DNA of 19,313 nucleotides. Origin: a bacterium (GTDB lineage Archaea; Thermoplasmatota; E2; JACPAO01; JAHFTW01). A model generated the notes under the pieces. The model searched no databases. It worked only from the letters and a program-made list of their open reading frames with translations, and was not told the DNA's origin. The position numbers and the translations under genes were made by a program. Positions 1 to 19,313 of the stretch are shown here, piece after piece. The stretch is from contig JAZJZE010000031.1 in NCBI GenBank assembly GCA_040390065.1, positions 1 through 19,313 of the forward strand. Direction: 5' to 3'. Numbering within the stretch: the stretch's first letter is position 1; each line of letters starts with the position of its first letter.

Positions 1-389
1 TGAAAGCCGCCACGACGTCCCACGCATAAGCCGACGTCGCCTAACCCGGTAGGGCTACGGCCAAGCAAGCTTGGCCGCAGCCGCGCCGTCCGGCTGCGCC
101 GGCCGGCGGGGCAGCGGTCTTGAAAGCCGCCACGACGTCCCACGCATAAGCCGACGTCGCCTAACCCGGTAGGGCTACGGCCAAGCAAGCTTGGCCGCAG
201 CCGCGCCGTCCGGCTGCGCCGGCCGGCGGGGCAGCGGTCTTGAAAGCCGCCACGACGTCCCACGCATAAGCCGACGTCGCCTAACCCGGTAGGGCTACGG
301 CCAAGCAAGCTTGGCCGCAGCCGCGCCGTCCGGCTGCGCCGGCCGGCGGGGCAGCGGTCTTGAAAGCCGCCACGACGTCCCACGCATAA
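1..389 (+). repeat. Exact 120-bp tandem array of tRNA-Ser 5'-half-derived units (full units start at 30, 150, 270; partial unit 1-29; may continue left of the window)
   Basis: Lines 1-120, 121-240 and 241-360 are identical. Unit = tRNA nt GCCGACGTCGCCTAACCCGGTAGGGC (26) + 57-nt insert + AGCGGTCTTGAAAGCCGCC anticodon arm (19) + 18-nt tail ACGACGTCCCACGCATAA. Confidence 0.97.
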
Positions 390-473
390 GCCGACGTCGC
401 CTAACCCGGTAGGGCAGCGGTCTTGAAAACCGCCGCGCGCGAGCGTTTCCAGGTTCAAATCCTGGCGTCGGCG
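390..473 (+). tRNA. tRNA-Ser (anticodon UGA), long variable arm, no encoded CCA
   Basis: Acceptor GCCGACG (390-396)/CGTCGGC (466-472), discriminator G473. D-arm GCCT-AACCCGGTA-GGGC. Anticodon arm GCGGT-CT TGA AA-ACCGC (TGA at 424-426). Variable arm CGCGCGCGAGCGTTT. T-arm CCAGG-TTCAAAT-CCTGG. Confidence 0.95.
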
Positions 474-8987: not shown

Positions 8988-9701
8988 TCAATCGAGGCGG
9001 CGGCGCGCCACGAAGCCGGCGAGGGCCAAGAGGCCGATGGCGAGCTCCGGGCCGATGGCAGGCGAGGACTTGCCGGGCGCGACGGCGGCCGTCGCCTTCG
9101 TGACGGTGATGCTCTCCTCGTGGTCCTGGTACATGGAGTCCGTCCAGGTGACAGTCATCTTGTCGGCCGAGGTGACGGTGCCGGCGGGCAGGCCCGTCGT
9201 CGCCGACACGGTGAAGCCGGCGGGGGCGTGGAAGGTGAACGGGGCCGTGCCGGAGGCGCTGCTCTGGCCCGAACTCTTGGAACTGCGTACGATGTGTTGG
9301 TTTGCGGCCGGCACGATGTAGCTCAGTGTGTGCATGGCATGGATCGTGATGGGGCCGGTCGCGCTGGCGGAGCCGACCAGGCCGTCGAGGGACGTGGTGA
9401 CGGTGACTGCCGTAGAGGCCTTGATGCCGTCGATGGTGGCGTCGTCGGCGGTGGGGGTCGACGTCTGGCCGTCGAGTTGTGCGACGAGGGCATCCTGTTC
9501 GGCTTGCGTGATCATGCCGTCTTGGTCCGTGTCGGCCATTTGGCGAATCTGGCCGGCTTCGCTGCCGGTCAGTTGGGCAACGGCAGTCTCGACGAGGCGG
9601 TCGGGGGCGGCCATGTTGATGTCCATCGAGATGCCCACCGTGCCGGCGCAGGCGGGTGGGATGAAGGCGAGCAGAGCGGCGGCTGCCAGGAGCAAGCGCA
9701 T
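8988..9701 (-). CDS. Secreted surface protein with an EF-hand-like Ca-binding loop and C-terminal anchor
   Basis: Signal peptide MRLLLAAAALLAFIPPACA, DTDQDGMITQAE loop, C-terminal SPAIG + TM + RRR. Confidence 0.8.
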   Translation of the reverse strand: MRLLLAAAALLAFIPPACAGTVGISMDINMAAPDRLVETAVAQLTGSEAGQIRQMADTDQDGMITQAEQDALVAQLDGQTSTPTADDATIDGIKASTAVTVTTSLDGLVGSASATGPITIHAMHTLSYIVPAANQHIVRSSKSSGQSSASGTAPFTFHAPAGFTVSATTGLPAGTVTSADKMTVTWTDSMYQDHEESITVTKATAAVAPGKSSPAIGPELAIGLLALAGFVARRRLD

Positions 9702-9746
9702 GCGACGGCCATGGATGCGGCCCCATATGACCATTCGGGGGACCTC

Positions 9747-10016
9747 GAGGCTGTTTCATAACTTCCAGGAGGCCTGCGCGCGCGGGTTTGCAAGGAAGGC
9801 TAGGAGGATTTGCCGACGGCGTGGCAGCGCCACGCCGAGGTGAATCCGACGACGCCCGCCGCCGCAAAGCGGCGCGCCCTTGCGGGTCGTTTTCCGGCCA
9901 CACATTCCCAGCGCGGGCGGCCTTGGCGGGCTGCCGGCCCGCCAGCGGCCGCCCGCGCCGCGACTGCGAGGGCCGGAAAACGACGCAGGCCACCCTGGCA
10001 GTTATGAAACAGCCTC
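9747..10016 (+). mobile_element. MITE-like structured repeat, copy A (270 bp)
   Basis: Perfect 17-bp terminal inverted repeat GAGGCTGTTTCATAACT/AGTTATGAAACAGCCTC (22/23 when extended). Homologous to 13896-14163 and 19208-19313. No transposase. Confidence 0.88.
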
Positions 10017-10891
10017 TAGTGGGCGGCGTCATGGCCATGCGGCTTGCGTAGCCGGAGGATGACGTACGTGGCCATCACGCCGAGATAGAGGAGGTACGTT
10101 GCGACCTCGGCCCAACGAGGGTCGGCGCGATACCCGAGGACCGCATGCAGCACTCCGCCCGTGGTGCACGCCGTCGTGGCCGGCGCGCCAGCCTCGCACT
10201 CCGTCGGAACGTTCGCCGACAAGTCCCATGCGACGGGCGATTCGGGGAACCATGCAGGCCCACCTTCCTCCTTGGGCTCCGACAGTTCGTGCACCGCCGT
10301 CACCGTGACGCCGGCCGCGATGACGACGAGGACCAGCCCGGTGGCAGCCATGAAGCGCTCGATGGACATCTTGAGGAAGCCGCTGAAGACGAGGAACGCG
10401 ACGAAGGCGCTTGCGGCGATGCCTGCCATGAGGGCCAGCGCGGTGGTGGCTGCGCCGTCGGTTTGCGAGCGTGCGGCGACGAAGAGGACCGTCTCGACGC
10501 CTTCGCGCAGGATGGCAATCAGGCCGAGGCCGAACAGGATGCCGCCGCGGCCGCCTGCCAAAGCTTCCTTGGTGCGCCGGTGCAGCGCGCCCATCATCCC
10601 TTGGGTGTGCCGGTACATCCACACGACCATGTACGTCAGGATGAGCACGGCCACCAGCGCCGCGAGGCCCTCGAACAGCGCCTCGTTGCGGTCGTACATC
10701 TCCTTCGATACGCCCTGGGCGAGCCAGCCGGCAAGCCCCGAAATGAGTAGACCAGCCAGTGCACCCCAAAGGATTGGGCGTCGCGCACCGGGCTGTCCCG
10801 TCTTGGTGGCGATGCCAAGGAGGATGCCGAGGATCAGCAGTCCCTCGAGCGATTCGCGCAGCGCGACCAATCCGGTGTCGATGAAGGCCAT
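10016..10891 (-). CDS. FTR1/EfeU-family high-affinity iron permease
   Basis: Two RExxE motifs (RESLE, REGVE), multiple TM helices, WMYRH; ATG 10891. Confidence 0.93.
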   Translation of the reverse strand: MAFIDTGLVALRESLEGLLILGILLGIATKTGQPGARRPILWGALAGLLISGLAGWLAQGVSKEMYDRNEALFEGLAALVAVLILTYMVVWMYRHTQGMMGALHRRTKEALAGGRGGILFGLGLIAILREGVETVLFVAARSQTDGAATTALALMAGIAASAFVAFLVFSGFLKMSIERFMAATGLVLVVIAAGVTVTAVHELSEPKEEGGPAWFPESPVAWDLSANVPTECEAGAPATTACTTGGVLHAVLGYRADPRWAEVATYLLYLGVMATYVILRLRKPHGHDAAH

Positions 10892-10892
10892 T

Positions 10893-10949
10893 TTCGGCTC
10901 CCCTAACACGGCGACGCGGCTGGTCTATTTGACTTTTAGGCCGGTCGAA
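10893..10949. promoter_or_regulatory. Two candidate DtxR-family operator sites upstream of FTR1
   Basis: TTCGG-ctccc-CTAAC (10893-10907) and TTTAG-gccgg-TCGAA (10935-10949); the same motif occurs at 11423-11437. Confidence 0.55.
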
Positions 10950-11407
10950 ACATTCTTGGGGCGTGCCTGTCGGGCGGCGCGCGGGCGGCTGTCGATCTGC
11001 TCCTTGACTTTCCGGTCGGTGTTGAACGCGTGGCCGAGGCGTTGCTCGAGGTAGGCCGCCATCCATGCCTCCAATTGCGCCGGGATCGTGTGCTCCATGT
11101 CGCAGGCGGCCTCGTGGGCAGCTCGGTGGTCCATCCCGCAGACTTCCTGCAGGAACGCCTGCATGACGCGGTGGCTCGCCAGGATGCTGCGCCCGACGCG
11201 GCGGCCGGCGGCGGTCAGGACGACGCCCTTGTACGGCTCGTAATCGACGAAGCCAGCCTTCTGCAACTTCTGCAGCATGTCCGTGACCGAGGGCGGCGCC
11301 ACGCCGAGGTGCCCCGCGATGTCCCCGGTGCGCGCGACCTTGCCTTCCTCTTCGAGGCGATAGATGGTCTCCAGGTACTCCTGCATCTGCTCGGAGGGCC
11401 CGTCCAC
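10925..11407 (-). CDS. DtxR/MntR-family metal-dependent transcriptional regulator
   Basis: EYLETIYRL, HTH DIAGHLGVAPPSVTDMLQKL, YEPYKGVVLT, and metal-site residues HR and EAACDMEH. Confidence 0.95.
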   Translation of the reverse strand: MDGPSEQMQEYLETIYRLEEEGKVARTGDIAGHLGVAPPSVTDMLQKLQKAGFVDYEPYKGVVLTAAGRRVGRSILASHRVMQAFLQEVCGMDHRAAHEAACDMEHTIPAQLEAWMAAYLEQRLGHAFNTDRKVKEQIDSRPRAARQARPKNVSTGLKVK

Positions 11408-11422
11408 GACGGCCAGGAAAAC

Positions 11423-11437
11423 TTCGGGCTAACTAAA
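11423..11437. promoter_or_regulatory. Candidate autoregulatory DtxR-family operator
   Basis: TTCGG-gctaa-CTAAA imperfect palindrome, 16-30 nt upstream of the regulator start. Confidence 0.55.
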
Positions 11438-11463
11438 CCTGTTGCAGAGGGCGCCGTCCAGGC

Positions 11464-12588
11464 CTAAGGGGTCGGCGGGAAGTCGATGCCGCTCAGCAAC
11501 TCGCGCTTGATGGCGTCGCGCTGCATCTGCGTGCTCTCGCCGACGAACTGAAGCGCCCGCACGTCGCGGGCAAAGCGCTCGGTCCCGCCGTCGCGCATGA
11601 AGCCCGTCCCACCCTGGATGCGGATGGCTTGCCGCGTCATGGGCACGGCCATCTCGGCGCAGAAAGCCTTGGCCCGCGCCGCCCAAAGGTGTCCATCCGC
11701 CTGGCCAAGCCGCGCGGCCGCCGCACAGACCAAGGCCCGGCCCGCAGCAAGCTGCGTATCGATGGTCGCCAAGCCGTCGGAGACCGCCTGGTACGTGCCG
11801 ATGGGCGCGTTGAACTGGCGCCTCGTCTGGGCAAACGCCGCCGCGGCATCGAGAGCGCCACCGACGCAACCGCAGAGCGCTGCCGCCGCACCCAATTGCA
11901 GCCAGCGCCGCGCGGCCTCCGCGATTGCGGCGCCCTGCCCGACGCCACCGATCACGGCACTCGTCGGTACCTGGACGCCGTACATGTAGACGGTACGGAT
12001 GCCGCAGGCGCGCAGCCCAAGAAGCGGCTCGTTCTCCCCGAGACTGACGCCGGCTGTGTCCGCGGGTACGTGCAGCAGCGTGGCGCCGCCGCCTTTTCCA
12101 GGGACGTTGGCCAGGACCAGGAAGTGGCGGGCGCCGGCCGCGTGGATGGCCCAGACCTTCTGCCCCGTGATGGCAAAGCCGCCCGGTGTCGGCATCGCCG
12201 TGGTGCCCGGGTGCAGGATGTCGGAGCCCAGCGCCTCTTCCGCCACGAGCCAGGCGGCAAACTCACCTGCGGCCAGCGCGGGAGCTAGCGGGTGCCCTGC
12301 CGCCGCCGCGGCCGCCAACGCGGCATTGTGCGCGATGAGGATGGCGGCCGCATTGGCATCGACTTGTGCGATCTCGTCGATGGCAAGCACGAACGGCGTG
12401 GCACCGAGCGGGGAGGCCGGGTCGGCCAGCGCCGTCAGCCCCAGTTGGACGGCTTCCGCCAGCGCCGCCTCGGGGACGCGGTCGTGCCGGTCGGCGTCCT
12501 GGGCACTCTGCAACGTGATGCGCGTCCGGGCGAACTCGCGCACGACCTTGCGCACGGCCTCTTCGTCGTCGGAGAAGGCGAAGGGCAC
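11464..12588 (-). CDS. Acyl-CoA dehydrogenase family protein (divergent active site)
   Basis: GTG 12588; [43 protein letters not shown] and ERFARD. Confidence 0.9.
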
Positions 12589-12687
12589 GGCTCTTGCTAT
12601 GCCCTCGGCCCGCCTAATGCCTTGCGCTGGCGGAGCACCGCCTGCTCCTTGGGAAAACGCCCTAAGCCGGGGCGGCCATCCCCGTGC

Positions 12688-13098
12688 ATGGCGAAGGCGG
12701 CGAAGGCCAGTGCGCCCGACGACGACGAATGGAAAGCCAAGCTCACGCCCGAGCAGTACGAGGTGACGCGCTGTTCGGCGACGGAGCGTCCCTTCACGGG
12801 GAAGTACTGGGATCACAAGGGCGTCGGCCTGTACAAGTGCGTCTGCTGCGGCACCGCCCTCTTCAAGTCAGACACGAAGTTCGAGTCCGGCACGGGTTGG
12901 CCCAGCTTCTGGGCCGCCGTCGACCGCAGCAAGGTGAAGGAAGTCGAGGACCGCGAGTACGGCATGGTGCGAACGGAGGTGCGTTGCGCCACCTGCGACG
13001 CCCACCTCGGGCATCTCTTCGACGACGGGCCCAACACCTCGGGGGAGCGCTACTGCATCAATTCGGCGAGCCTGGACTTCGAAGGCAAGGCCAAGTGA
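12688..13098 (+). CDS. msrB: Peptide-methionine (R)-S-oxide reductase MsrB, Zn-binding type
   Basis: [17 protein letters not shown], two CxxC, GWPSF, HLGHLF and RYCINS. Confidence 0.97.
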
Positions 13099-13200
13099 AG
13101 AGGCCTGGAAAACCCGAGGATTTTGCCGCGACACGAAGCACCAAGCGTCGGCGTGTGTAGGCCCCCGGCAGTGGCCGCCCCTGGCCACACGGTGACCCCA

Positions 13201-13896
13201 ATGAACATGCGAAACCTGCTTGCCCTGATTGCCGTGGCCATGGTCACGTTCCCGTTCCCGGCGCAATCCTCCGGGACCGACGGCTCGAACGCCGCCAACA
13301 AGACGGCTGCCGCCGGCTCCACCGTGGAGATCCTCGGCAACGGCGTCTCCGGCGGATCCAACTCCATGTCGGCGACGGTGCTTGCGACCTCCATCAAGAC
13401 GTCGCCGCCGCAGGACCTCCTGTTCACGGTCAGCTTGGAATGTGCGCTGTGGACCACGGTGAAGACGGTCGGCAACGACGTGTCCGAATCGACATCCCGT
13501 GTCACGGTGACCGTCTTCTTCGACGGCAACATGGTCCCGATCAGCTCGGATGACGCCGACGGCTCCGTCGTGTTCTGCGACCGCACCCACCAGCAGTCGA
13601 CGTCCGGCTTCGACGACGAGAACGCCACCATCAAGCAGTACCTCGCCACACGCACGGCCAACGCCTTCAGCTGGGTCCTGCCCAACGTCGGCGGCGGAAC
13701 CCACTCCGTCGAAGTCGTCGCCGAACTCTCGGGCACCGCCACGGACAATGCGTTCACCCAGGCTGGCATCGGTCACCGCACCCTCGTCGTCGAGCCCGTG
13801 CACCTGGCCCAAGGCGCGACCGTGACCAACACCGCCCCGGCGGCGTCGCACGGCGCCACGGCAACGACCAGCCTGCTCTGGGGCTCGGCGTTCTAG
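13201..13896 (+). CDS. Secreted hypothetical protein
   Basis: Signal peptide MRNLLALIAVAMVTFPFPAQS, beta-rich body, strong host codon bias. Confidence 0.8.
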   Translation: MNMRNLLALIAVAMVTFPFPAQSSGTDGSNAANKTAAAGSTVEILGNGVSGGSNSMSATVLATSIKTSPPQDLLFTVSLECALWTTVKTVGNDVSESTSRVTVTVFFDGNMVPISSDDADGSVVFCDRTHQQSTSGFDDENATIKQYLATRTANAFSWVLPNVGGGTHSVEVVAELSGTATDNAFTQAGIGHRTLVVEPVHLAQGATVTNTAPAASHGATATTSLLWGSAF

Positions 13897-14163
13897 AGGT
13901 CGTTTCACAACTGCCAGGGTGCCTGCGTCGTTTTCCGGGCTTCGCAATCCTGGCGATGGCGGCCGCCGGCGGGCCGGAAGCCCGCCAAGGCCGCCGGCGC
14001 CAGGATTGTGTGGCCGGAAAACGACCCGGAGGGCGCGCCGCTTTGCGGCGGATTCCGGCGTCAGCCGGGCCTCGGCGTGGCTCTGCCACGCCGTCCGCCC
14101 AACTTCCTTGCACTCCTTGCAAACCAGCGCGCGCAGGCTTCCTGGAAGTTGTGAAACGGCCTC
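13896..14163 (-). mobile_element. MITE-like structured repeat, copy B (268 bp, inverted relative to A)
   Basis: Terminal repeats GAGGTCGTTTCACAACT/AGTTGTGAAACGGCCTC. About 84% identical to copy A by hand alignment. Confidence 0.88.
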
Positions 14164-14170
14164 TGGCGGC

Positions 14171-14584
14171 CTACTGGAGTGCCCGGCAGGGCACGCGGGT
14201 GCCCGGTCCACCGGGGCCCGGGAACCAGTTGACCGTGATGAGGCGGCCGACCACGACCTCGACGGCGCTTCCCGGCATGGGCTGCGCGGGGCAGTCCCAC
14301 GTCGATTGGTTCACGGCGTCGAGATGGATGAGCAGGCCCGTGGGCGTTGCCTGTTGCAACGGCGGGAAGCTCACCTTCTGGTTCCCGGCGATCGTCGCAT
14401 TGTGCTCGTAGACGGCGACCTCGCCCTGCTGGATGAGAAGGCCGACAGGGACCGCGACGTCCGCGGTGTTGCTCACCGTGAAGGGGATCAGGGTCGCGCT
14501 CGACGCCGTCGTGGGCGCAACGGTCGGCTGCGACGAGGAGCAACCGGCCAGCAGAAGAACCGCGGCGACGAGCAGAAGCCTCAT
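14171..14584 (-). CDS. Small putative lipoprotein
   Basis: MRLLLVAAVLLLAGC lipobox; ATGA overlap with the Rid gene. Confidence 0.75.
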   Translation of the reverse strand: MRLLLVAAVLLLAGCSSSQPTVAPTTASSATLIPFTVSNTADVAVPVGLLIQQGEVAVYEHNATIAGNQKVSFPPLQQATPTGLLIHLDAVNQSTWDCPAQPMPGSAVEVVVGRLITVNWFPGPGGPGTRVPCRALQ

Positions 14585-15042
14585 TCCAGCTCGGCCACCA
14601 CTTCGACCTCGAATGGCACGTTGAACGGCAGTTCCGCCACCCCGACGCTGCTGCGGGCGTGCCGGCCCTTATCGCCGAAGGCTGCGACGAAGAGTTCGCT
14701 GGCGCCGTTGGCGACGACGTGGACGTCGGTGAACCCGGGCGAGGCCGCGGTGAAGTTGACCGTCTTCACGATGCGTACCTTGTCGAGGTGGCCGCCGGAC
14801 GCCTCCCTGAGCACGGCGATGGCGTTGAGGGCGCACACCCGGGCGATGGCCTGCGCGTCCTGCACGTTCACGTCCTTGCCGACCTTCCCCGTGCGGATGG
14901 GCTTGCCGTCGACCAGAGGCACCTGCCCGGACACGTAGATGGTCTTTCCAGCCCGCGTCCACGGCACGTACGTGGCCGCCGGCTTTCCCGGCATCGGCAG
15001 TTGGTGGCCGGCCGCGGCCAGGCGCTTCTCGACGTCGCTCAT
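14581..15042 (-). CDS. RidA/YjgF-family protein (enamine/imine deaminase-like)
   Basis: PAATYVP, IYVSGQVP, VANGASELF, HARSSVGV (catalytic Arg) and LPFNVPFEVE; ATG 15042. Confidence 0.93.
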   Translation of the reverse strand: MSDVEKRLAAAGHQLPMPGKPAATYVPWTRAGKTIYVSGQVPLVDGKPIRTGKVGKDVNVQDAQAIARVCALNAIAVLREASGGHLDKVRIVKTVNFTAASPGFTDVHVVANGASELFVAAFGDKGRHARSSVGVAELPFNVPFEVEVVAELE

Positions 15043-15104
15043 GGGCCAGGCCATTTCCATGACCCCACATGAAGTTTCATGAGTGTGGCCGACCATGCTC
15101 TTGC

Positions 15105-16778
15105 ATGCGGCAGCCTGGCCTCGTCCTCGCCTTGGCCGCCCTTGCCGTCCTGCCCGCGCTCTCCGGTTGCGCGTCGCCCGCCCCCCTTCGGGACTTTGCG
15201 CCCATTGCCTCCCCGGACTGGCGCCCGGGCTACGCCTTCCAGTACGCCAACGAGCAGTCCAGCTCCAGCCACGTCGCCGTGACGCGCAACGGCGTGCCCC
15301 AATCGAACGGCCACGACGCCGCCACGCATGCACCCGTGCCGGGCCTGTCGTTGGAGGTCTTGTCCACGCATGTGCCCGACGGCGACCGCCCGATGTACCT
15401 CGTGGCAGCCCAAGTCGGCACGACGGTCGAGGCGTTGACCGCGGACAGCCGCCTCGCCGGCCGCCACCCCGTCGGCGTGCGCCCCAGCGACTTGCAGGTC
15501 GTCGATGCCATGGTGCATTACGCGCAAGCCTGCGCCGACATCTGCACGACGCGTGCGTCCTCCCTGCGCTACGACGCGGTGAGCAGCTACCCATGGCTGG
15601 AGTTCCCGCTCGTGCGCGGCGCCAAGTGGTCTGGTCCGATGCCGGGACTGTCCCCGGCAGGCTCGGTCGTCGGCACGATGGAAGTGCACTCCACGGTGGC
15701 GGGCCTGGACCGTGTCACGACCCCCCTCGGCGAGGTCGATGCCGTTCGCGTCAATCACCACATCGAAGCCCCCCAACTCGCCGCCAACCTCGCTCTCCTG
15801 CGCGATGAGGGGGTCGCCCGCGGGTATTCGGCGGTCGACGTGTCGGCGACACTGTCGTTCGACCGCACGATCTGGTTCGGGCCTGCATCGCATGCCGTCG
15901 TTCGCGACGAGAGCCACATGGCGTTTGCCGAACGCGTGGCTTGGACCAACCACGGCGACCGGTACGAGACCGCGATCGACATTGCAAGCGATTCGCGGCA
16001 GAGCCTTGTCGCGTTCACGCTGGGGGAGGTGGCCGACCTCGACTTGGCGGACGCGCTCGATGCATTGAGCCCCGGCTCGAGCAAGAACGCGGCGCCGTTG
16101 GCACCAGTCAGCACGGCGCTTCGGTTGACGGCCGACCACGCGGACGCCAACGCCGCTGCCAGCCAGCCCATCACGTTCCGCCCCATCATTCCAGCAGGCC
16201 GCGGGCCCGGCCAGGACCTGTCGGTCTTCGTGGTGGGCGCCCACGGCATCGTCGCCCTGCAGGACGATGGCTCCGGCGCCTTCCGCTTCGTTCCGCCGGA
16301 GATGGGCCTGTACACGGCGGTTGCACAGCAGAGCAGGGACGGGGCCGTCGTGCAAAGGTCGAGCATGCAGATCCCCGTGCGCTACGACGGCCAAGCCACC
16401 ATTGCCTGCCCCCTTGCAGACCCAGGCTTCAACGGCTGTTCCACCGCCGTCGTCCCCGTGCGTCCGGGCATCCGGCGTCTGACGATTGACGCCACGCGCA
16501 GCGGCGCCGCCTTGCCTGCCACACTCCGGCTCACGGCGGCCGACGGCACGACGACGAGCGCGGACTTCACGGGCAGCCACGCACGCATCGAGTTGGATGC
16601 ATTTTCCCCGCAGGGTGCCGCAGGCCCGGATTGGATGCTCGAGTACGTGCCGGTCGTCGTGGCTGGTGAGACCGTGGACCTGCATCTGCGACTGGACCCG
16701 GAGCAACCTAGCCCCACGACGGACGGCGCCGATGTCGGAGTTGCCGCGCTGGCATGCACCGCGTGCGAGCCCTGGTGA
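15105..16778 (+). CDS. Large putative lipoprotein, unknown function
   Basis: MRQPGLVLALAALAVLPALSGC lipobox; PDWRPGYAFQY, FPLVRGAKW and VTTPLGEVDAVRV segments. Confidence 0.8.
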   Translation: MRQPGLVLALAALAVLPALSGCASPAPLRDFAPIASPDWRPGYAFQYANEQSSSSHVAVTRNGVPQSNGHDAATHAPVPGLSLEVLSTHVPDGDRPMYLVAAQVGTTVEALTADSRLAGRHPVGVRPSDLQVVDAMVHYAQACADICTTRASSLRYDAVSSYPWLEFPLVRGAKWSGPMPGLSPAGSVVGTMEVHSTVAGLDRVTTPLGEVDAVRVNHHIEAPQLAANLALLRDEGVARGYSAVDVSATLSFDRTIWFGPASHAVVRDESHMAFAERVAWTNHGDRYETAIDIASDSRQSLVAFTLGEVADLDLADALDALSPGSSKNAAPLAPVSTALRLTADHADANAAASQPITFRPIIPAGRGPGQDLSVFVVGAHGIVALQDDGSGAFRFVPPEMGLYTAVAQQSRDGAVVQRSSMQIPVRYDGQATIACPLADPGFNGCSTAVVPVRPGIRRLTIDATRSGAALPATLRLTAADGTTTSADFTGSHARIELDAFSPQGAAGPDWMLEYVPVVVAGETVDLHLRLDPEQPSPTTDGADVGVAALACTACEPW

Positions 16779-16827
16779 TTGTCTCCAGACGCACGCTTTT
16801 ATGGCGGCCCCAAGTCGCCGCGGCTCG

Positions 16828-17592
16828 ATGACGAAGATTGCCGTCCTGGTCAAGATGGCGCCGGACGTGACACAGCTCAAGATCGATCCCGCCACACAGG
16901 CCCCGCGCATGGAGGGCTTGCCGTGGAAGGTCTCCGACTTCGACAAGAACGCCATCGAGGCGGCTGTCAAACTCAAGGAGAAGGGGCAGGCCACGAAGAT
17001 CACGGCCTACACGTTCAACGGTGGACCGACGGTGCTGAACCTCATCAAGGAGCCCTTGGCGATGGGTTGCGACGAGGCCGTCGTTCTCACGGGTCCGGAC
17101 ACGGACGGCATCGGCATCGCGCGCGTGCTTGCAGAGGCGGTGCGCAAGGACGGCGCCGACCTTGTCTTCGCCGGTGACGTGTCCATCGACCGCGTGCAGG
17201 GCGAGATTGGCCCCCGCGTCGCAGCCATCCTTGGCATGCCGAGCCTCGTCAACTGCCAGCAGGTGCACGGCGTCGAAGGCGGCAAACTCAAGGCGACGCG
17301 AGCCGGCGACCCCGACGAGACGGTCGAAGTGCCTCTGCCGTGCGCGGCGACCTTCAACGACGAAGCCAACCGGCCGCGGCTTCCCGCACTCATGCAGATC
17401 CTCGGCGCGGGGAAGAAGCCCATCCGCCAAGTGAAGACGTCCGACCTCGGCATCGCGGACGCAAGCCTCGCGCGGCGCATGGCCATGACGGCCAACAAGG
17501 CGCCCAAGCAGGAGCGCAAGAACGTCGTGTTTTCTGGCGCCGACGCGGCCGAGCAATTGGCGCAGGCGCTGAAGAAGGAGGGCGTCGCATGA
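16828..17592 (+). CDS. etfB: Electron transfer flavoprotein beta subunit
   Basis: KIAVLVKMAPD, FDKNAIEAAVKLKE, LAMGCD, GDVSID and NRPRLP; TTTTAT box about 25-30 nt upstream. Confidence 0.95.
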   Translation: MTKIAVLVKMAPDVTQLKIDPATQAPRMEGLPWKVSDFDKNAIEAAVKLKEKGQATKITAYTFNGGPTVLNLIKEPLAMGCDEAVVLTGPDTDGIGIARVLAEAVRKDGADLVFAGDVSIDRVQGEIGPRVAAILGMPSLVNCQQVHGVEGGKLKATRAGDPDETVEVPLPCAATFNDEANRPRLPALMQILGAGKKPIRQVKTSDLGIADASLARRMAMTANKAPKQERKNVVFSGADAAEQLAQALKKEGVA

Positions 17593-18437
17593 GCGTCATC
17601 CTCGTCTGGTCCGACGACGCCAAACTGCAGGCAGAGCTCGCAGGCAAGGCCGCAAGCCTCGGCACGGCCAACGTCTTCGTCCCCGCCGGTTTGCCGGACG
17701 GCGACTCCGCGACCATCGCCCTGGGCCTGGCCGACGCAGCGAAATCGTCGCACGCCGAACTCGTCATGGTCGGCGCCACGAAGAAAGGCAAAGACGTCGG
17801 CCCGCGCCTCGCCGCCCACCTGGATGTCCCCTTTGCCGCAGAGGTCCAGGAGGTCTCCAACACTGGCGGCTGGACGGTCTCGCGCATGGTCCTCTCGGGC
17901 AACTCCAAGGCGACGTACACCCTAGGCGCCTCTGCCGTCGTCACGGCGAACCCGAAGACGTTCGAGGCCAGCGGCGCGGCGCCTGCCGCCGTCAATGCGT
18001 CCGGGATTGCAGCGAGCTCCGTCAACGTGGTGGGGAAGAAGGCGGAGATGCACAGCGACTTCGACCTCGGCTCCGCCCTGGTCGTGGTCGGCGTCGGCCG
18101 CGGCTTCAAGCAGCAAGCAGACATCAAGCTGGCCGAGGATCTTGCCAAATGCTTCCCCGGTGGCGCCGTCGGATGCAGCCGCCCCATCGCGGCCGACCTC
18201 AAATGGCTCGGCGAAGAGCACTGGATTGGCCTGTCGGGCCATGCCATCAAGCCCAAGGCGTACATCGCCTGCGGCGTGTCGGGCCAGATCCAGCACATCG
18301 CCGGCATCCGCGGCTCGAAACTCATCGTGGCCATCAACACGAACAAGGACGCGCCCATCTTCCAGGTCGCCGACTACGGCGTCGTGGGCGACTTGTACCA
18401 GGTCATCCCCAAGCTCATGGCGGCACTCAAGTCGTAG
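17589..18437 (+). CDS. etfA: Electron transfer flavoprotein alpha subunit (short N-terminal domain)
   Basis: VVGVGRG, GCSRP, IGLSG, GVSGQIQHIAG and AINTNKDAPIFQVADYGVVGD; ATGA overlap with etfB. Confidence 0.95.
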   Translation: MSVILVWSDDAKLQAELAGKAASLGTANVFVPAGLPDGDSATIALGLADAAKSSHAELVMVGATKKGKDVGPRLAAHLDVPFAAEVQEVSNTGGWTVSRMVLSGNSKATYTLGASAVVTANPKTFEASGAAPAAVNASGIAASSVNVVGKKAEMHSDFDLGSALVVVGVGRGFKQQADIKLAEDLAKCFPGGAVGCSRPIAADLKWLGEEHWIGLSGHAIKPKAYIACGVSGQIQHIAGIRGSKLIVAINTNKDAPIFQVADYGVVGDLYQVIPKLMAALKS

Positions 18438-18482
18438 GGACCCGCCAATAACCCTAAGGCGGCAAGTCCGCATCGCCGTGTC

Positions 18483-19208
18483 GTGCGCATCGCAGCCGCC
18501 GCCGTCGTTCTCGTCATCCTGCCACTTTCCGGTTGCTTCGGCGGATCACACCACGTGACGCCAGGAGACTACCTCACCGGCACGTACGGCAAGTGGCTCG
18601 TCGAAGTGGACGCCGCATCCGGCGACCGCCCGGACACGAGCCTCACGACGTTCCTGCATGACCACCTGGCCCCGCTCGTGAACAAGCCCAACGGCGTGGC
18701 ATTCTACAACGATGATGCCCTCACGTCGACCGACGCGTCCTGGTCGGATTCGCAGATCGAGGACTTCGCCTCGGCGCACTCGAGCTTCTCCACGGGTGGC
18801 GACCAAGTCGTCACGCATCTCATGTTCCTAGCGGGGCACTACGCGGGCGACTCCGGCAGTGCCAAGGTGCTCGGCGTCACGTACGACTACGACCTCATCG
18901 TCATCTTCCCCCAGACCATCAAGTCAACTTGCACTCTGCAGAACCTGTGCACCGACTCCGGCTCCATCCTGCGCGCCGCGACGCTGCACGAATTCGGCCA
19001 CGCCCTGGGCCTCGTCAACCGCGGCACCGACATGGTGCACCCGCACGAAGACGCCAGCCACGCAGGCCACTCCACCAACAACAAGTCCGTCATGTATTGG
19101 GCCGTGGAGAGCAGCGACATCGTCAACCTGCTCACGACGGGCGGCACCATCCCGCAGGACTTCGACTCCAGCGACAAGGAAGACCTGCACCACGCCGGCG
19201 GCCTCTAG
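18483..19208 (+). CDS. Lipoprotein zinc metallopeptidase (metzincin-like)
   Basis: LSGC lipobox, HEFGHALGL zinc motif, distal His residues, SVMY Met-turn. Confidence 0.85.
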   Translation: MRIAAAAVVLVILPLSGCFGGSHHVTPGDYLTGTYGKWLVEVDAASGDRPDTSLTTFLHDHLAPLVNKPNGVAFYNDDALTSTDASWSDSQIEDFASAHSSFSTGGDQVVTHLMFLAGHYAGDSGSAKVLGVTYDYDLIVIFPQTIKSTCTLQNLCTDSGSILRAATLHEFGHALGLVNRGTDMVHPHEDASHAGHSTNNKSVMYWAVESSDIVNLLTTGGTIPQDFDSSDKEDLHHAGGL

Positions 19209-19313
19209 AGGTCATTGCATAACCTCCAGGAGGCCTGCGCGCGCCGGTTTGCAAGGATTGCTAGGAGGTTGGGCCGACTTCGTGGCAGCGCCACGACGAG
19301 GTCCAAGCGACGA
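19208..19313 (+). mobile_element. MITE-like structured repeat, copy C (cut off by the window end)
   Basis: GAGGTCATTGCATAACCTCCAGGAGGCCTGCGCGCGCCGGTTTGCAAGGA aligns without gaps to the left end of copy A. Confidence 0.85.

What the first reader, a model, noticed from the sequence alone, without database searches (positions are those of the whole stretch)
9747..19313. ~270-bp repeat family with compensatory changes in its stems (copies at 9747, 13896, 19208)
Seen: three copies in under 10 kb, with A and B about 84% identical by hand count. The terminal repeats co-vary within each copy: A has CTGTTTCATAAC/GTTATGAAACAG and B has TCGTTTCACAAC/GTTGTGAAACGG, i.e. two T-A to C-G swaps and one wobble. 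The inner hairpin GCGTGGC-agc-GCCACGC (A; loop aga in B) becomes TCGTGGC-agc-GCCACGA in C. Other shared stems are CGCCGC-aaa-GCGGCG and a long arm closed by GTCGTTTTCCGG/CCGGAAAACGAC, while linkers vary most. Inference: pairing rather than sequence is being maintained, pointing to an abundant structured RNA or ssDNA element (a domesticated MITE or 3' UTR module) that I do not recognise. Subfamilies or conversion between the ends could also explain the pattern.
Basis: partly seen in the sequence, partly recalled or inferred. Interest (0 to 1): 0.75.

Follow-up and report, generated by a model that had tools for sequence, protein, structure and literature searches.

The report
Structured archaeal MITE at stop codons
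The repeat is a small non-autonomous transposon (MITE) of an uncultured Thermoplasmatota-type archaeon that sits on the stop codons of genes and keeps its predicted hairpins intact through many paired base changes, so it is a known kind of element with unusually clear structural conservation.

Summary
They belong to a ~268-bp family with 30 matches in this 2.68-Mb, 67% GC assembly. Fifteen are full length and 13 partial ones stop at contig ends.

The element has ~31-bp terminal inverted repeats and TA flanks. Its first 20 bases match, at 19 of 20, the ends of an 861-bp IS5-family (IS427-group) insertion sequence found in related genomes, though not in this assembly. I therefore read it as a MITE.

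In 15 of 16 complete copies, at least one end lies on a gene's stop codon. There the TAG is rebuilt from the duplicated TA plus the element's first G.

Of 1968 pair cells, 96.7% are paired, and 35 of 88 pairs changed on both sides (0 of 500 shuffles reach this). A tree-based count gives 28 same-branch pair-to-pair changes, against 0-3 in slid controls.

One arm tolerates G·U but not A·C, which hints at folding of one specific strand. The repeat ends and the long arm are symmetric. No RNA data exist and no function is shown.

Verdict: new member of a known kind, moderate interest.

The parts
9747..10016 (+). MITE copy A, full length (270 bp)
   Evidence: Flanked by TC (9745-9746, a degenerate TA) and TA (10017-10018).
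9747..9777 (+). Copy A left terminal inverted repeat (pairs with 9984-10016)
   Evidence: helix 1: 28 pairs, 94.4% of cells paired. Its first 20 nt match the IS427-group IS end in L076 at 19 of 20.
9984..10016 (+). Copy A right terminal inverted repeat
9806..9847 (+). Copy A left arm core: hypervariable stem (9806-9814 with 9839-9847) enclosing hairpin GGCGTGGC-agc-GCCACGCC (9818-9836), with unpaired GAC and GAG between them
   Evidence: There are 15 stem haplotypes, 114 of 120 cells paired, permutation p<=5e-5. G·U versus A·C is 29:0 cells.
9886..9984 (+). Copy A long palindromic arm (~100 nt hairpin closed by GTCGTTTTCCGG/CCGGAAAACGAC)
   Evidence: Self-match on the opposite strand. Helices 7-9. 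8 same-branch compensatory events.
13896..14163 (-). MITE copy B, full length, inverted relative to A
   Evidence: Flanks are TA (13894-13895) and TG (14164-14165, degenerate).
19208..19313 (+). MITE copy C, first 106 nt only (contig ends)
   Evidence: TA at 19206-19207.
10016..10909 (-). FTR1-family iron permease gene whose TAG stop (10018-10016) is TA plus the last base of copy A
   Evidence: Pfam PF03239, E 2.3e-38.
13123..13896 (+). Gene-like ORF whose TAG stop (13894-13896) is TA plus the first base of copy B's + strand end
   Evidence: No Pfam hit.
18483..19208 (+). Gene-like ORF whose TAG stop (19206-19208) is TA plus the first G of copy C
8988..9734 (-). Gene-like ORF starting 12 nt beyond copy A's left end, so copy A sits between two co-directional genes
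14171..14584 (-). Gene-like ORF whose stop lies 7 nt from copy B's other end, so copy B sits between convergent genes

Best explanation
[quoted passage not shown] Public records holding near-identical copies are titled Thermoplasmatota or Thermoplasmata MAGs.

The element carries no gene. It is bounded by ~31-bp imperfect terminal inverted repeats starting GAGGYYRTTKCATAAC, and by a duplicated TA. It is most likely moved in trans by the transposase of an IS5-family, IS427-group insertion sequence that has the same ends.

It lands at TA, mostly in CTAG or TTAG. In this 67% GC genome that very often means the TAG or TAA stop codon of a gene. The stop is rebuilt as TA plus the element's first G, so the protein is unchanged and the copy survives.

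As a single strand the element is predicted to fold into a Y shape: a terminal stem made of the two repeats, a left arm (a hypervariable stem enclosing a conserved hairpin) and a long right hairpin.

Shown: the copy family, the terminal repeats and TA flanks, the matching IS in relatives, the stop-codon placement, and many independent compensatory changes.

Inferred: the ends co-vary because one transposase must bind both. The internal arms are kept by selection on a folded single strand. The left arm folds on one particular strand, most simply an RNA made by read-through or from an AT-rich TATA-like box in the repeat. The long arm must pair on both strands, which would suit a hairpin working in either orientation behind genes.
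For: Family: 30 primary nhmmer matches, 15 full length, 13 cut at contig ends and 2 internal ~190-nt deletion forms. Read-contig depth over the element is ~290 against ~14 in the flanks.

Ends: TA lies on both sides in 11 of 16 complete copies, and the other 5 differ by one base on one side (with the register of the two short copies taken). The bases outside the TA differ between the two sides, which argues against a 4-bp duplication.

Partner: the pattern TAGAGRNNRTTKCANAAY occurs 23 times in G000, 10 in G004, 10 in G019 and 3 in G008, and the reversed control pattern occurs 0 times in those genomes. In G019 two such ends, 861 bp apart and TA-flanked, enclose two overlapping ORFs. These hit PF13340 (5.9e-22) and PF01609/PF13586 (1.4e-14, 1e-9), and an A7 run lies in the overlap. 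Table 2 and passages of PMC3281130 list IS427-group elements of 832-865 bp, with 2-bp duplications in most, and describe two ORFs with a frameshift motif.

Stop codons: 18 of 37 repeat ends abut a gene-like ORF ending in that TAG, and 2 more read through where the TA has mutated. 15 of 16 complete copies have at least one such end. By comparison only 23.6% of the 1366 other CTAG sites lie at gene-like stops. The same placement is seen in related genomes.

Structure: 96.7% of 1968 cells are paired, and 35 of 88 pairs changed on both sides against 16±2 in shuffles (0 of 500 reach this); slid controls give 6-15. There are 28 same-branch pair-to-pair changes, against 0-3 in slid controls and a mean of 0.85 (maximum 5) in 1000 partner permutations.

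Strand asymmetry: in the left arm G·U versus A·C is 29:0, 6:0 and 4:2 cells, against 15:17 in the repeats and 9:11 in the long arm. By pair types this is 15/1 against 14/17, Fisher p = 0.0013.
Against: No IS427-group transposase or IS DNA is found in this assembly, nor in G004 or G007. The assembly is 89% complete, and repeats are often unassembled. Only 1 of the 4 clearly MITE-bearing genomes has an assembled partner.

Similarity to the IS stops after ~20 nt, so the element is not a simple deletion derivative.

No empty site was found. Relatives are too diverged (~70% nt identity, no synteny downstream), and the run contigs show no joint.

Internal blocks are more conserved across genera than the repeat tips, which is unusual for a plain MITE.

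The stop-codon excess may reflect survival rather than targeting, and my gene calls are crude (GC3 rule, 75% coverage).

The pair-type counts used for the strand asymmetry are not fully independent. Copies face neighbouring genes in both orientations about equally, so read-through alone cannot explain a one-strand signature. Mosaic copies with mismatched arms exist (C3:39887, C9:36524).
Confidence: 0.8

Rival explanations
1. It is a MITE, but pairing is kept with no RNA role at all. The ends co-vary because the transposase binds both. The internal palindromes stay complementary through DNA-level processes: template switching within quasi-palindromes, hairpin or cruciform repair, and conversion between copies.
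For: G·U and A·C mismatches are balanced in the repeats (15:17) and the long arm (9:11). Mosaic and recombinant copies exist. Copies show no orientation bias relative to genes. No RNA holder is available. That quasi-palindrome template switching produces paired changes is recalled knowledge, not a result of any call.
Against: The left arm shows 29:0 G·U over A·C in its variable stem, which a strand-blind DNA process does not predict. Arms 30-250 nt apart co-vary. The left-arm core is retained, with new compensations, in weaker matches from a third genus.
Confidence: 0.35
2. The copies have been taken over by the host as 3' end modules. They would act as transcription stops or protective hairpins directly behind stop codons, working in either orientation.
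For: 15 of 16 complete copies lie at a stop codon. The fold is very stable. A T3-T5 run at the base of the long arm is invariant on both strands. The long arm pairs symmetrically.
Against: Distribution is patchy, at 4 of 38 genomes of the order, so no conserved host role is evident. The T run lies inside the stem, not after it. Three of 16 copies sit 12-31 nt upstream of the next gene's start in apparent operons, where termination would be harmful. Nothing was measured.
Confidence: 0.2
3. It is a MITE of the IS630/Tc1-mariner type, which also duplicates TA.
For: TA flanks and the CTAG preference.
Against: PF13358 is absent from all four MITE-bearing genomes. The IS630-like copies found in G025 have different ends. 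An IS427-group IS has the matching ends.
Confidence: 0.03
4. It is a dispersed family of structured RNA genes, not a mobile element.
For: Strong covariation. Internal blocks are more conserved than the ends.
Against: It has terminal inverted repeats identical to an IS's ends, TA duplications, both orientations, deletion derivatives, local clusters and patchy presence among relatives. There is no Rfam match.
Confidence: 0.03

Closest known systems
MITEs that share terminal repeats with an IS5-family, IS427-group insertion sequence
   Same: Terminal inverted repeats starting GAG, a 2-bp (TA) duplication, and ends 19 of 20 identical to an 861-bp two-ORF IS with PF13340 plus PF01609/PF13586. The size, duplication length and frameshift layout agree with the IS427-group entries in Table 2 and passages of PMC3281130.
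   Different: The interior is unrelated to the IS beyond ~20 nt. No partner is assembled in this genome. The host is an uncultured archaeal lineage. Two searches of the paper library found no MITE study of Thermoplasmata or Thermoplasmatota (the latter's one relevant hit, PMC13343696, names MITEs only in passing).
Bacterial structured MITEs such as Correia elements (Neisseria), ERIC and RUP/BOX/SPRITE (recalled; general statements seen in passages of the review PMC10969869)
   Same: Small size, terminal repeats, intergenic position close to genes, and transcripts predicted to form very stable stem-loops. Proposed effects are on termination or mRNA stability.
   Different: This is a different host domain and a different sequence family. 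Here the insertion is exactly on the stop codon, and paired changes are documented quantitatively, with one arm showing a strand-specific wobble bias.
Archaeal MITEs of Sulfolobus, Halobacterium and Haloquadratum (listed in the review PMC10969869, passage seen)
   Same: Non-autonomous archaeal elements mobilised in trans by IS transposases.
   Different: No sequence relation was tested. Those hosts and their partner IS families differ (recalled).

Membership tests
MITE (non-autonomous DDE transposon) | Terminal inverted repeats | tested here: met
   ~31 bp; 28 pairs with 94.4% of cells paired across 24 copies.
MITE (non-autonomous DDE transposon) | Target site duplication | tested here: met
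   TA on both sides in 11 of 16 complete copies, and a one-base variant on one side in the other 5.
MITE (non-autonomous DDE transposon) | Small, multicopy, dispersed, both orientations, no transposase gene | tested here: met
   265-270 bp; 30 matches on 17 contigs in both orientations. 1-nt indels between subfamilies break any common reading frame (seen in the alignment, not formally tested).
MITE (non-autonomous DDE transposon) | Ends shared with an autonomous IS in the same genome | tested here: not met
   The matching IS is present in G019, and its ends lie at contig breaks of G008. It is absent from the G000 assembly, which is 89% complete.
MITE (non-autonomous DDE transposon) | Evidence of mobility (empty or polymorphic sites) | tested here: inconclusive
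   Relatives are too diverged for site comparison, and contigs of the holding run show no joint. Indirect evidence: patchy presence (4 of 38 genomes) and copy-number differences.
IS5 family, IS427 group (partner IS in L076) | Two overlapping ORFs (DUF4096 N-terminal part, DDE C-terminal part) with a slippery run | tested here: met
   PF13340 at 5.9e-22; PF01609 at 1.4e-14 and PF13586 at 1e-9. An A7 run lies in the overlap.
IS5 family, IS427 group (partner IS in L076) | Length ~800-1000 bp with a 2-bp duplication | tested here: met
   861 bp between TA-flanked ends. Compared with Table 2 of PMC3281130.
IS630/Tc1-mariner-derived MITE | Ends matching an IS630-family element; DDE_3 transposase in the host | tested here: not met
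   PF13358 occurs in 3 of 38 genomes, none of them MITE-bearing. The ends of those IS differ.
Any Rfam RNA family | Covariance-model match at gathering score | tested here: not met
   Only a tRNA matches in the window. The best sub-threshold hit over copy A is 19.4 bits against a cut-off of 42.
Bacterial-type intrinsic terminator | GC-rich hairpin followed by a U run | tested here: not met
   The T4 run lies inside the 5' arm of the long hairpin and pairs with an A4 run. Archaeal oligo-T termination was not testable here.

The most novel reading that the evidence does not exclude
The element is more than a passive MITE. Its ~100-nt left arm would be a strand-specific structured RNA module: a conserved hairpin and conserved unpaired GAC/GAG bases set in a helix that is free to change sequence only if both sides change. 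It would be kept by selection in at least three genera and transcribed from the AT-rich, TATA-like box in the terminal repeat. That RNA, or a protein bound to it, would act on the element's own spread or on the 3' ends of the genes it sits behind.
Probability: 0.2. Interest if true: 0.6.

Novelty: new member of a known kind. Interest (0 to 1): 0.4.

Why it matters
It adds a well-defined MITE family, with a candidate partner IS, to a poorly studied uncultured archaeal lineage. It explains 14 of the contig ends in this assembly.

It is also a clean natural example of two effects. First, in a GC-rich genome a TA-targeting transposon ends up almost only on stop codons, and it rebuilds them. Second, a mobile element can carry strong, tree-corrected compensatory covariation, which RNA-discovery scans would otherwise read as a new structured RNA.

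If the one-strand signature of the left arm reflects a real RNA, the family would offer a tractable case of a transposon-borne structured RNA in archaea.

Tried and rejected
- IS630 partner: rejected.
- Transposases in the own genome: PF13340 and PF13586 give nothing. PF01609 gives two diverged 660-730-aa open frames (C43, C4). None of the repeat-end motif matches found genome-wide lies at those places, but their own ends were not examined.
- Looser end motifs in G000: only MITE ends turned up.
- Genome-collection pattern scan: 7 loci, of which 6 are true and 1 is a chance match in a Beijerinckiaceae record.
- Metagenome scan: 9 loci, of which only L050 is a true match, a ~90-nt derivative.
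- Viral contigs: 0 matches.
- Empty-site search in the genus: orthologues of the FTR1 gene are ~70% identical and the downstream gene is not syntenic, so this was uninformative.
- Sequencing runs: no RNA holder is listed. Contigs of the one DNA holder break at the element and show no joint.
- Strand comparison of folding energies: the left arm is more stable on the + strand in 21 of 22 copies, but the long arm is more stable on the - strand in 22 of 23. I judged this not decisive, because loop and stacking terms differ between strands.
- Rfam: no match.
- Not done: complex prediction, structure prediction and the protein-homology searches were not needed. R-scape is not installed, so I used the tool's shuffles and my own parsimony count.
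Full report
**1. Observation.**
The window is contig C31 of a 2.68-Mb, 50-contig, 67% GC assembly that is 89% complete.
- A: 9747-10016.
- B: 13896-14163.
- C: 19208-19313, cut by the contig end.

A and B are 84.7% identical over 268 columns, but only when B is reverse-complemented. A and C are 84.8% identical over 99 columns.

**2. The family.**
An nhmmer profile finds 47 hits, which reduce to 30 primary matches:
- 15 are full length.
- 13 are partial copies that stop at contig ends.
- 2 are internal ~190-nt forms that lack the long arm.

One of the full-length copies also reaches a contig end. The element therefore accounts for 14 contig ends. Summed contig depth in the one public run that holds the locus is ~290 over the element against ~14 in the flanks.

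**3. Ends and target.**
Aligned copies begin GAGGYYRTTKCATAAC and end with its complement. The inverted repeat extends to ~31 bp, with three mismatches in copy A.

TA lies on both sides in 11 of 16 complete copies, and the other 5 have a one-base variant on one side. The bases outside the TA differ between the two flanks, for example TTAG on the left against CTAG on the right, and CTAG against CTAA. This fits a 2-bp TA duplication in an NTAN target (mostly CTAG) better than a 4-bp duplication.

**4. Organism and distribution.**
Public records with near-identical copies are titled Thermoplasmatota or Thermoplasmata archaeon MAGs. One is labelled 'uncultured Halobacteriales archaeon'.

- In the held genomes of the order, the element is found in 4 of 38: G000, G004, G007 and G019, the last from another genus.
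- A covariance model of the left arm adds two weak matches, one in G016 (44.6 bits) and a further one in G019.
- A metagenome scan gave 9 loci, of which 1 is a true hit. It is a ~90-nt derivative lying between two convergent ORFs.
- Viral contigs gave nothing.

**5. Partner element.**
No DDE_3 (IS630) gene exists in any MITE-bearing genome, and the IS630 copies elsewhere in the order have different ends.

Scanning 197 genomes of the class for the repeat-end motif gave 23 hits in G000, 10 in G004, 10 in G019, 3 in G008 (all at contig ends) and 2 in G029. The reversed control pattern gave none in these genomes.

In G019, two such ends 861 bp apart and flanked by TA enclose two overlapping ORFs. 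These hit PF13340 (DUF4096, 5.9e-22) and PF01609/PF13586 (1.4e-14, 1e-9), and an A7 run lies in the overlap. Table 2 and passages of PMC3281130 describe the IS427 group of the IS5 family in matching terms:
- lengths of 832-865 bp;
- 2-bp duplications in most members;
- two ORFs with a frameshift motif.

The IS end GAGACTGTTTCATAACTTCC matches the MITE end at 19 of 20 positions, and similarity stops there. The IS is not in G000 by Pfam scan, tblastn or blastn. It is also not in G004 or G007.

**6. Stop codons.**
I called ORFs gene-like with a simple rule: at least 60 codons, GC3 of at least 0.78, and GC1 above GC2.

- 18 of 37 repeat ends abut an ORF whose stop is exactly TAG, made of the TA plus the element's first G. 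Two more read on into the element where the TA has mutated.
- 15 of 16 complete copies have at least one such end.
- In the window this holds for the FTR1 permease gene (10016-10909, PF03239) and for ORFs 13123-13896 and 18483-19208.
- Genome-wide, TAG and TGA are equally common stops (1125 and 1110; TAA 293). Only 23.6% of the 1366 other CTAG sites lie at such stops, or 28% of those outside called genes.
- Copies in related genomes show the same placement.

Whether this reflects targeting or survival of harmless insertions cannot be told from these data.

**7. Structure and covariation.**
Copy A folds at -200.2 kcal/mol (z = -13.3) into a Y shape. For 24 aligned copies I combined the RNAalifold consensus with the terminal stem, giving 88 pairs. 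The results are:

| Measure | Observed | Control |
|---|---|---|
| Cells paired | 96.7% of 1968 | slid controls 37-44% |
| Pairs changed on both sides | 35 of 88 | 16±2 in shuffles (0 of 500 reach 35); slid 6-15 |
| Same-branch pair-to-pair double changes (FastTree tree, Fitch parsimony) | 28 | slid 0-3; partner permutations mean 0.85, max 5 |

By helix, the 28 events split as 9 in the variable stem, 8 in the long arm, 6 in the repeats, 3 in the P2 stem (a long-range stem at the base of the left arm) and 2 in hairpin 1.

Twelve of them are fully paired, and 114 of 120 cells pair against a permutation mean of 84.6 (p<=5e-5). Two mosaic copies (C3:39887, C9:36524) carry mismatched arms, which shows recombination between copies.

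**8. Which molecule folds?**
G·U pairs become A·C mismatches on the other strand. Cell counts are:

| Region | G·U cells | A·C cells |
|---|---|---|
| Terminal repeats | 15 | 17 |
| Long arm | 9 | 11 |
| Left arm: variable stem | 29 | 0 |
| Left arm: P2 | 6 | 0 |
| Left arm: hairpin 1 | 4 | 2 |

By pair types this is 15/1 in the left arm against 14/17 elsewhere (Fisher p = 0.0013). The types are not fully independent.

Partial copies and the G016 match add further G·U cases and no A·C cases. This points to folding of one particular strand for the left arm.

The symmetric parts fit either protein recognition of duplex DNA (the repeats) or a hairpin that must form on both strands (the long arm).

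Copies face their neighbouring genes in both orientations about equally. A one-strand signature therefore cannot come from read-through alone. An inward promoter using the AT-rich TTTCATAA box of the repeat is my inference. It is supported only by the observation that in the IS the transposase ATG lies 49 nt from the end.

**9. What could not be settled.**
- No RNA run holds the locus.
- No empty site was found.
- No Rfam family matches.
- Strand comparison of folding energies gave opposite preferences for the two arms, and I do not rely on it.

**10. Verdict.**
This is a new MITE family related to IS427-group insertion sequences, in an uncultured archaeal lineage. Two library searches found no MITE study of Thermoplasmata or Thermoplasmatota. 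The one relevant hit, a survey of archaeal IS (PMC13343696, passages seen), names MITEs only in passing.

'Domesticated' or '3' UTR module' is not shown.

The kind of element is known, and reviews already note that MITE transcripts fold stably (PMC10969869, passages seen). The points of interest are the strength of the compensatory signal, the one-strand bias of one arm and the near-exclusive stop-codon placement.

Noticed in passing
window 1-473: A 120-nt unit is repeated 3.5 times at 99-100% identity at the contig start. Each unit begins with the 5' part of the tRNA-Ser(TGA) gene, which is complete only at 390-473. This could be remnants of an integrative-element att site or an assembly artefact at a contig end.
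   Followed up: partly
G000 C9:216947-217135 and C21:19060-19247; L050:1993-2080: Shorter derivatives of the element: two ~190-nt forms lacking the long arm, and a ~90-nt form in a metagenome contig. All have both repeat ends and TA flanks.
   Followed up: partly
L082:545-785 (G019), L083-L085 (G004): Other short elements or single ends carry the same repeat-end motif but a different interior. The same transposase type may therefore mobilise several MITE families.
   Followed up: no
window 9734-9762; G000 C9:37483 and C9:213439: In 3 of 16 complete copies a gene-like ORF starts 12-31 nt outside a repeat end. The AT-rich box of the repeat then lies roughly where an archaeal TATA box for a leaderless mRNA would be. 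An outward promoter is possible but untested.
   Followed up: no
G007:C6:80528-80642, G019:C269:14403-14519, G019:C266:494-609: In the diverged copies, the left-arm covariance model also matches the opposite strand of the right half (54-66 bits). The element may have begun as a fold-back duplication of one arm.
   Followed up: no
window 9747-19313; G000 C9:36524/37483, 213172/216947, 604469/608524: Copies cluster. Three lie within 10 kb in the window, and three pairs lie 1-4 kb apart on C9, in a genome averaging about one copy per 90 kb. This suggests local hopping.
   Followed up: no
G000 C43:11941-14136 and C4:101650-103641: Two diverged open frames of ~660-730 aa carry a C-terminal DDE_Tnp_1 domain. 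They represent a different, unclassified transposase-like gene pair, and their ends were not examined.
   Followed up: no
whole genome G000: By a crude GC3-based gene call, TAG is as common a stop codon as TGA (1125 vs 1110; TAA 293). That is notable for a 67% GC genome and relevant to where the element can land.
   Followed up: partly
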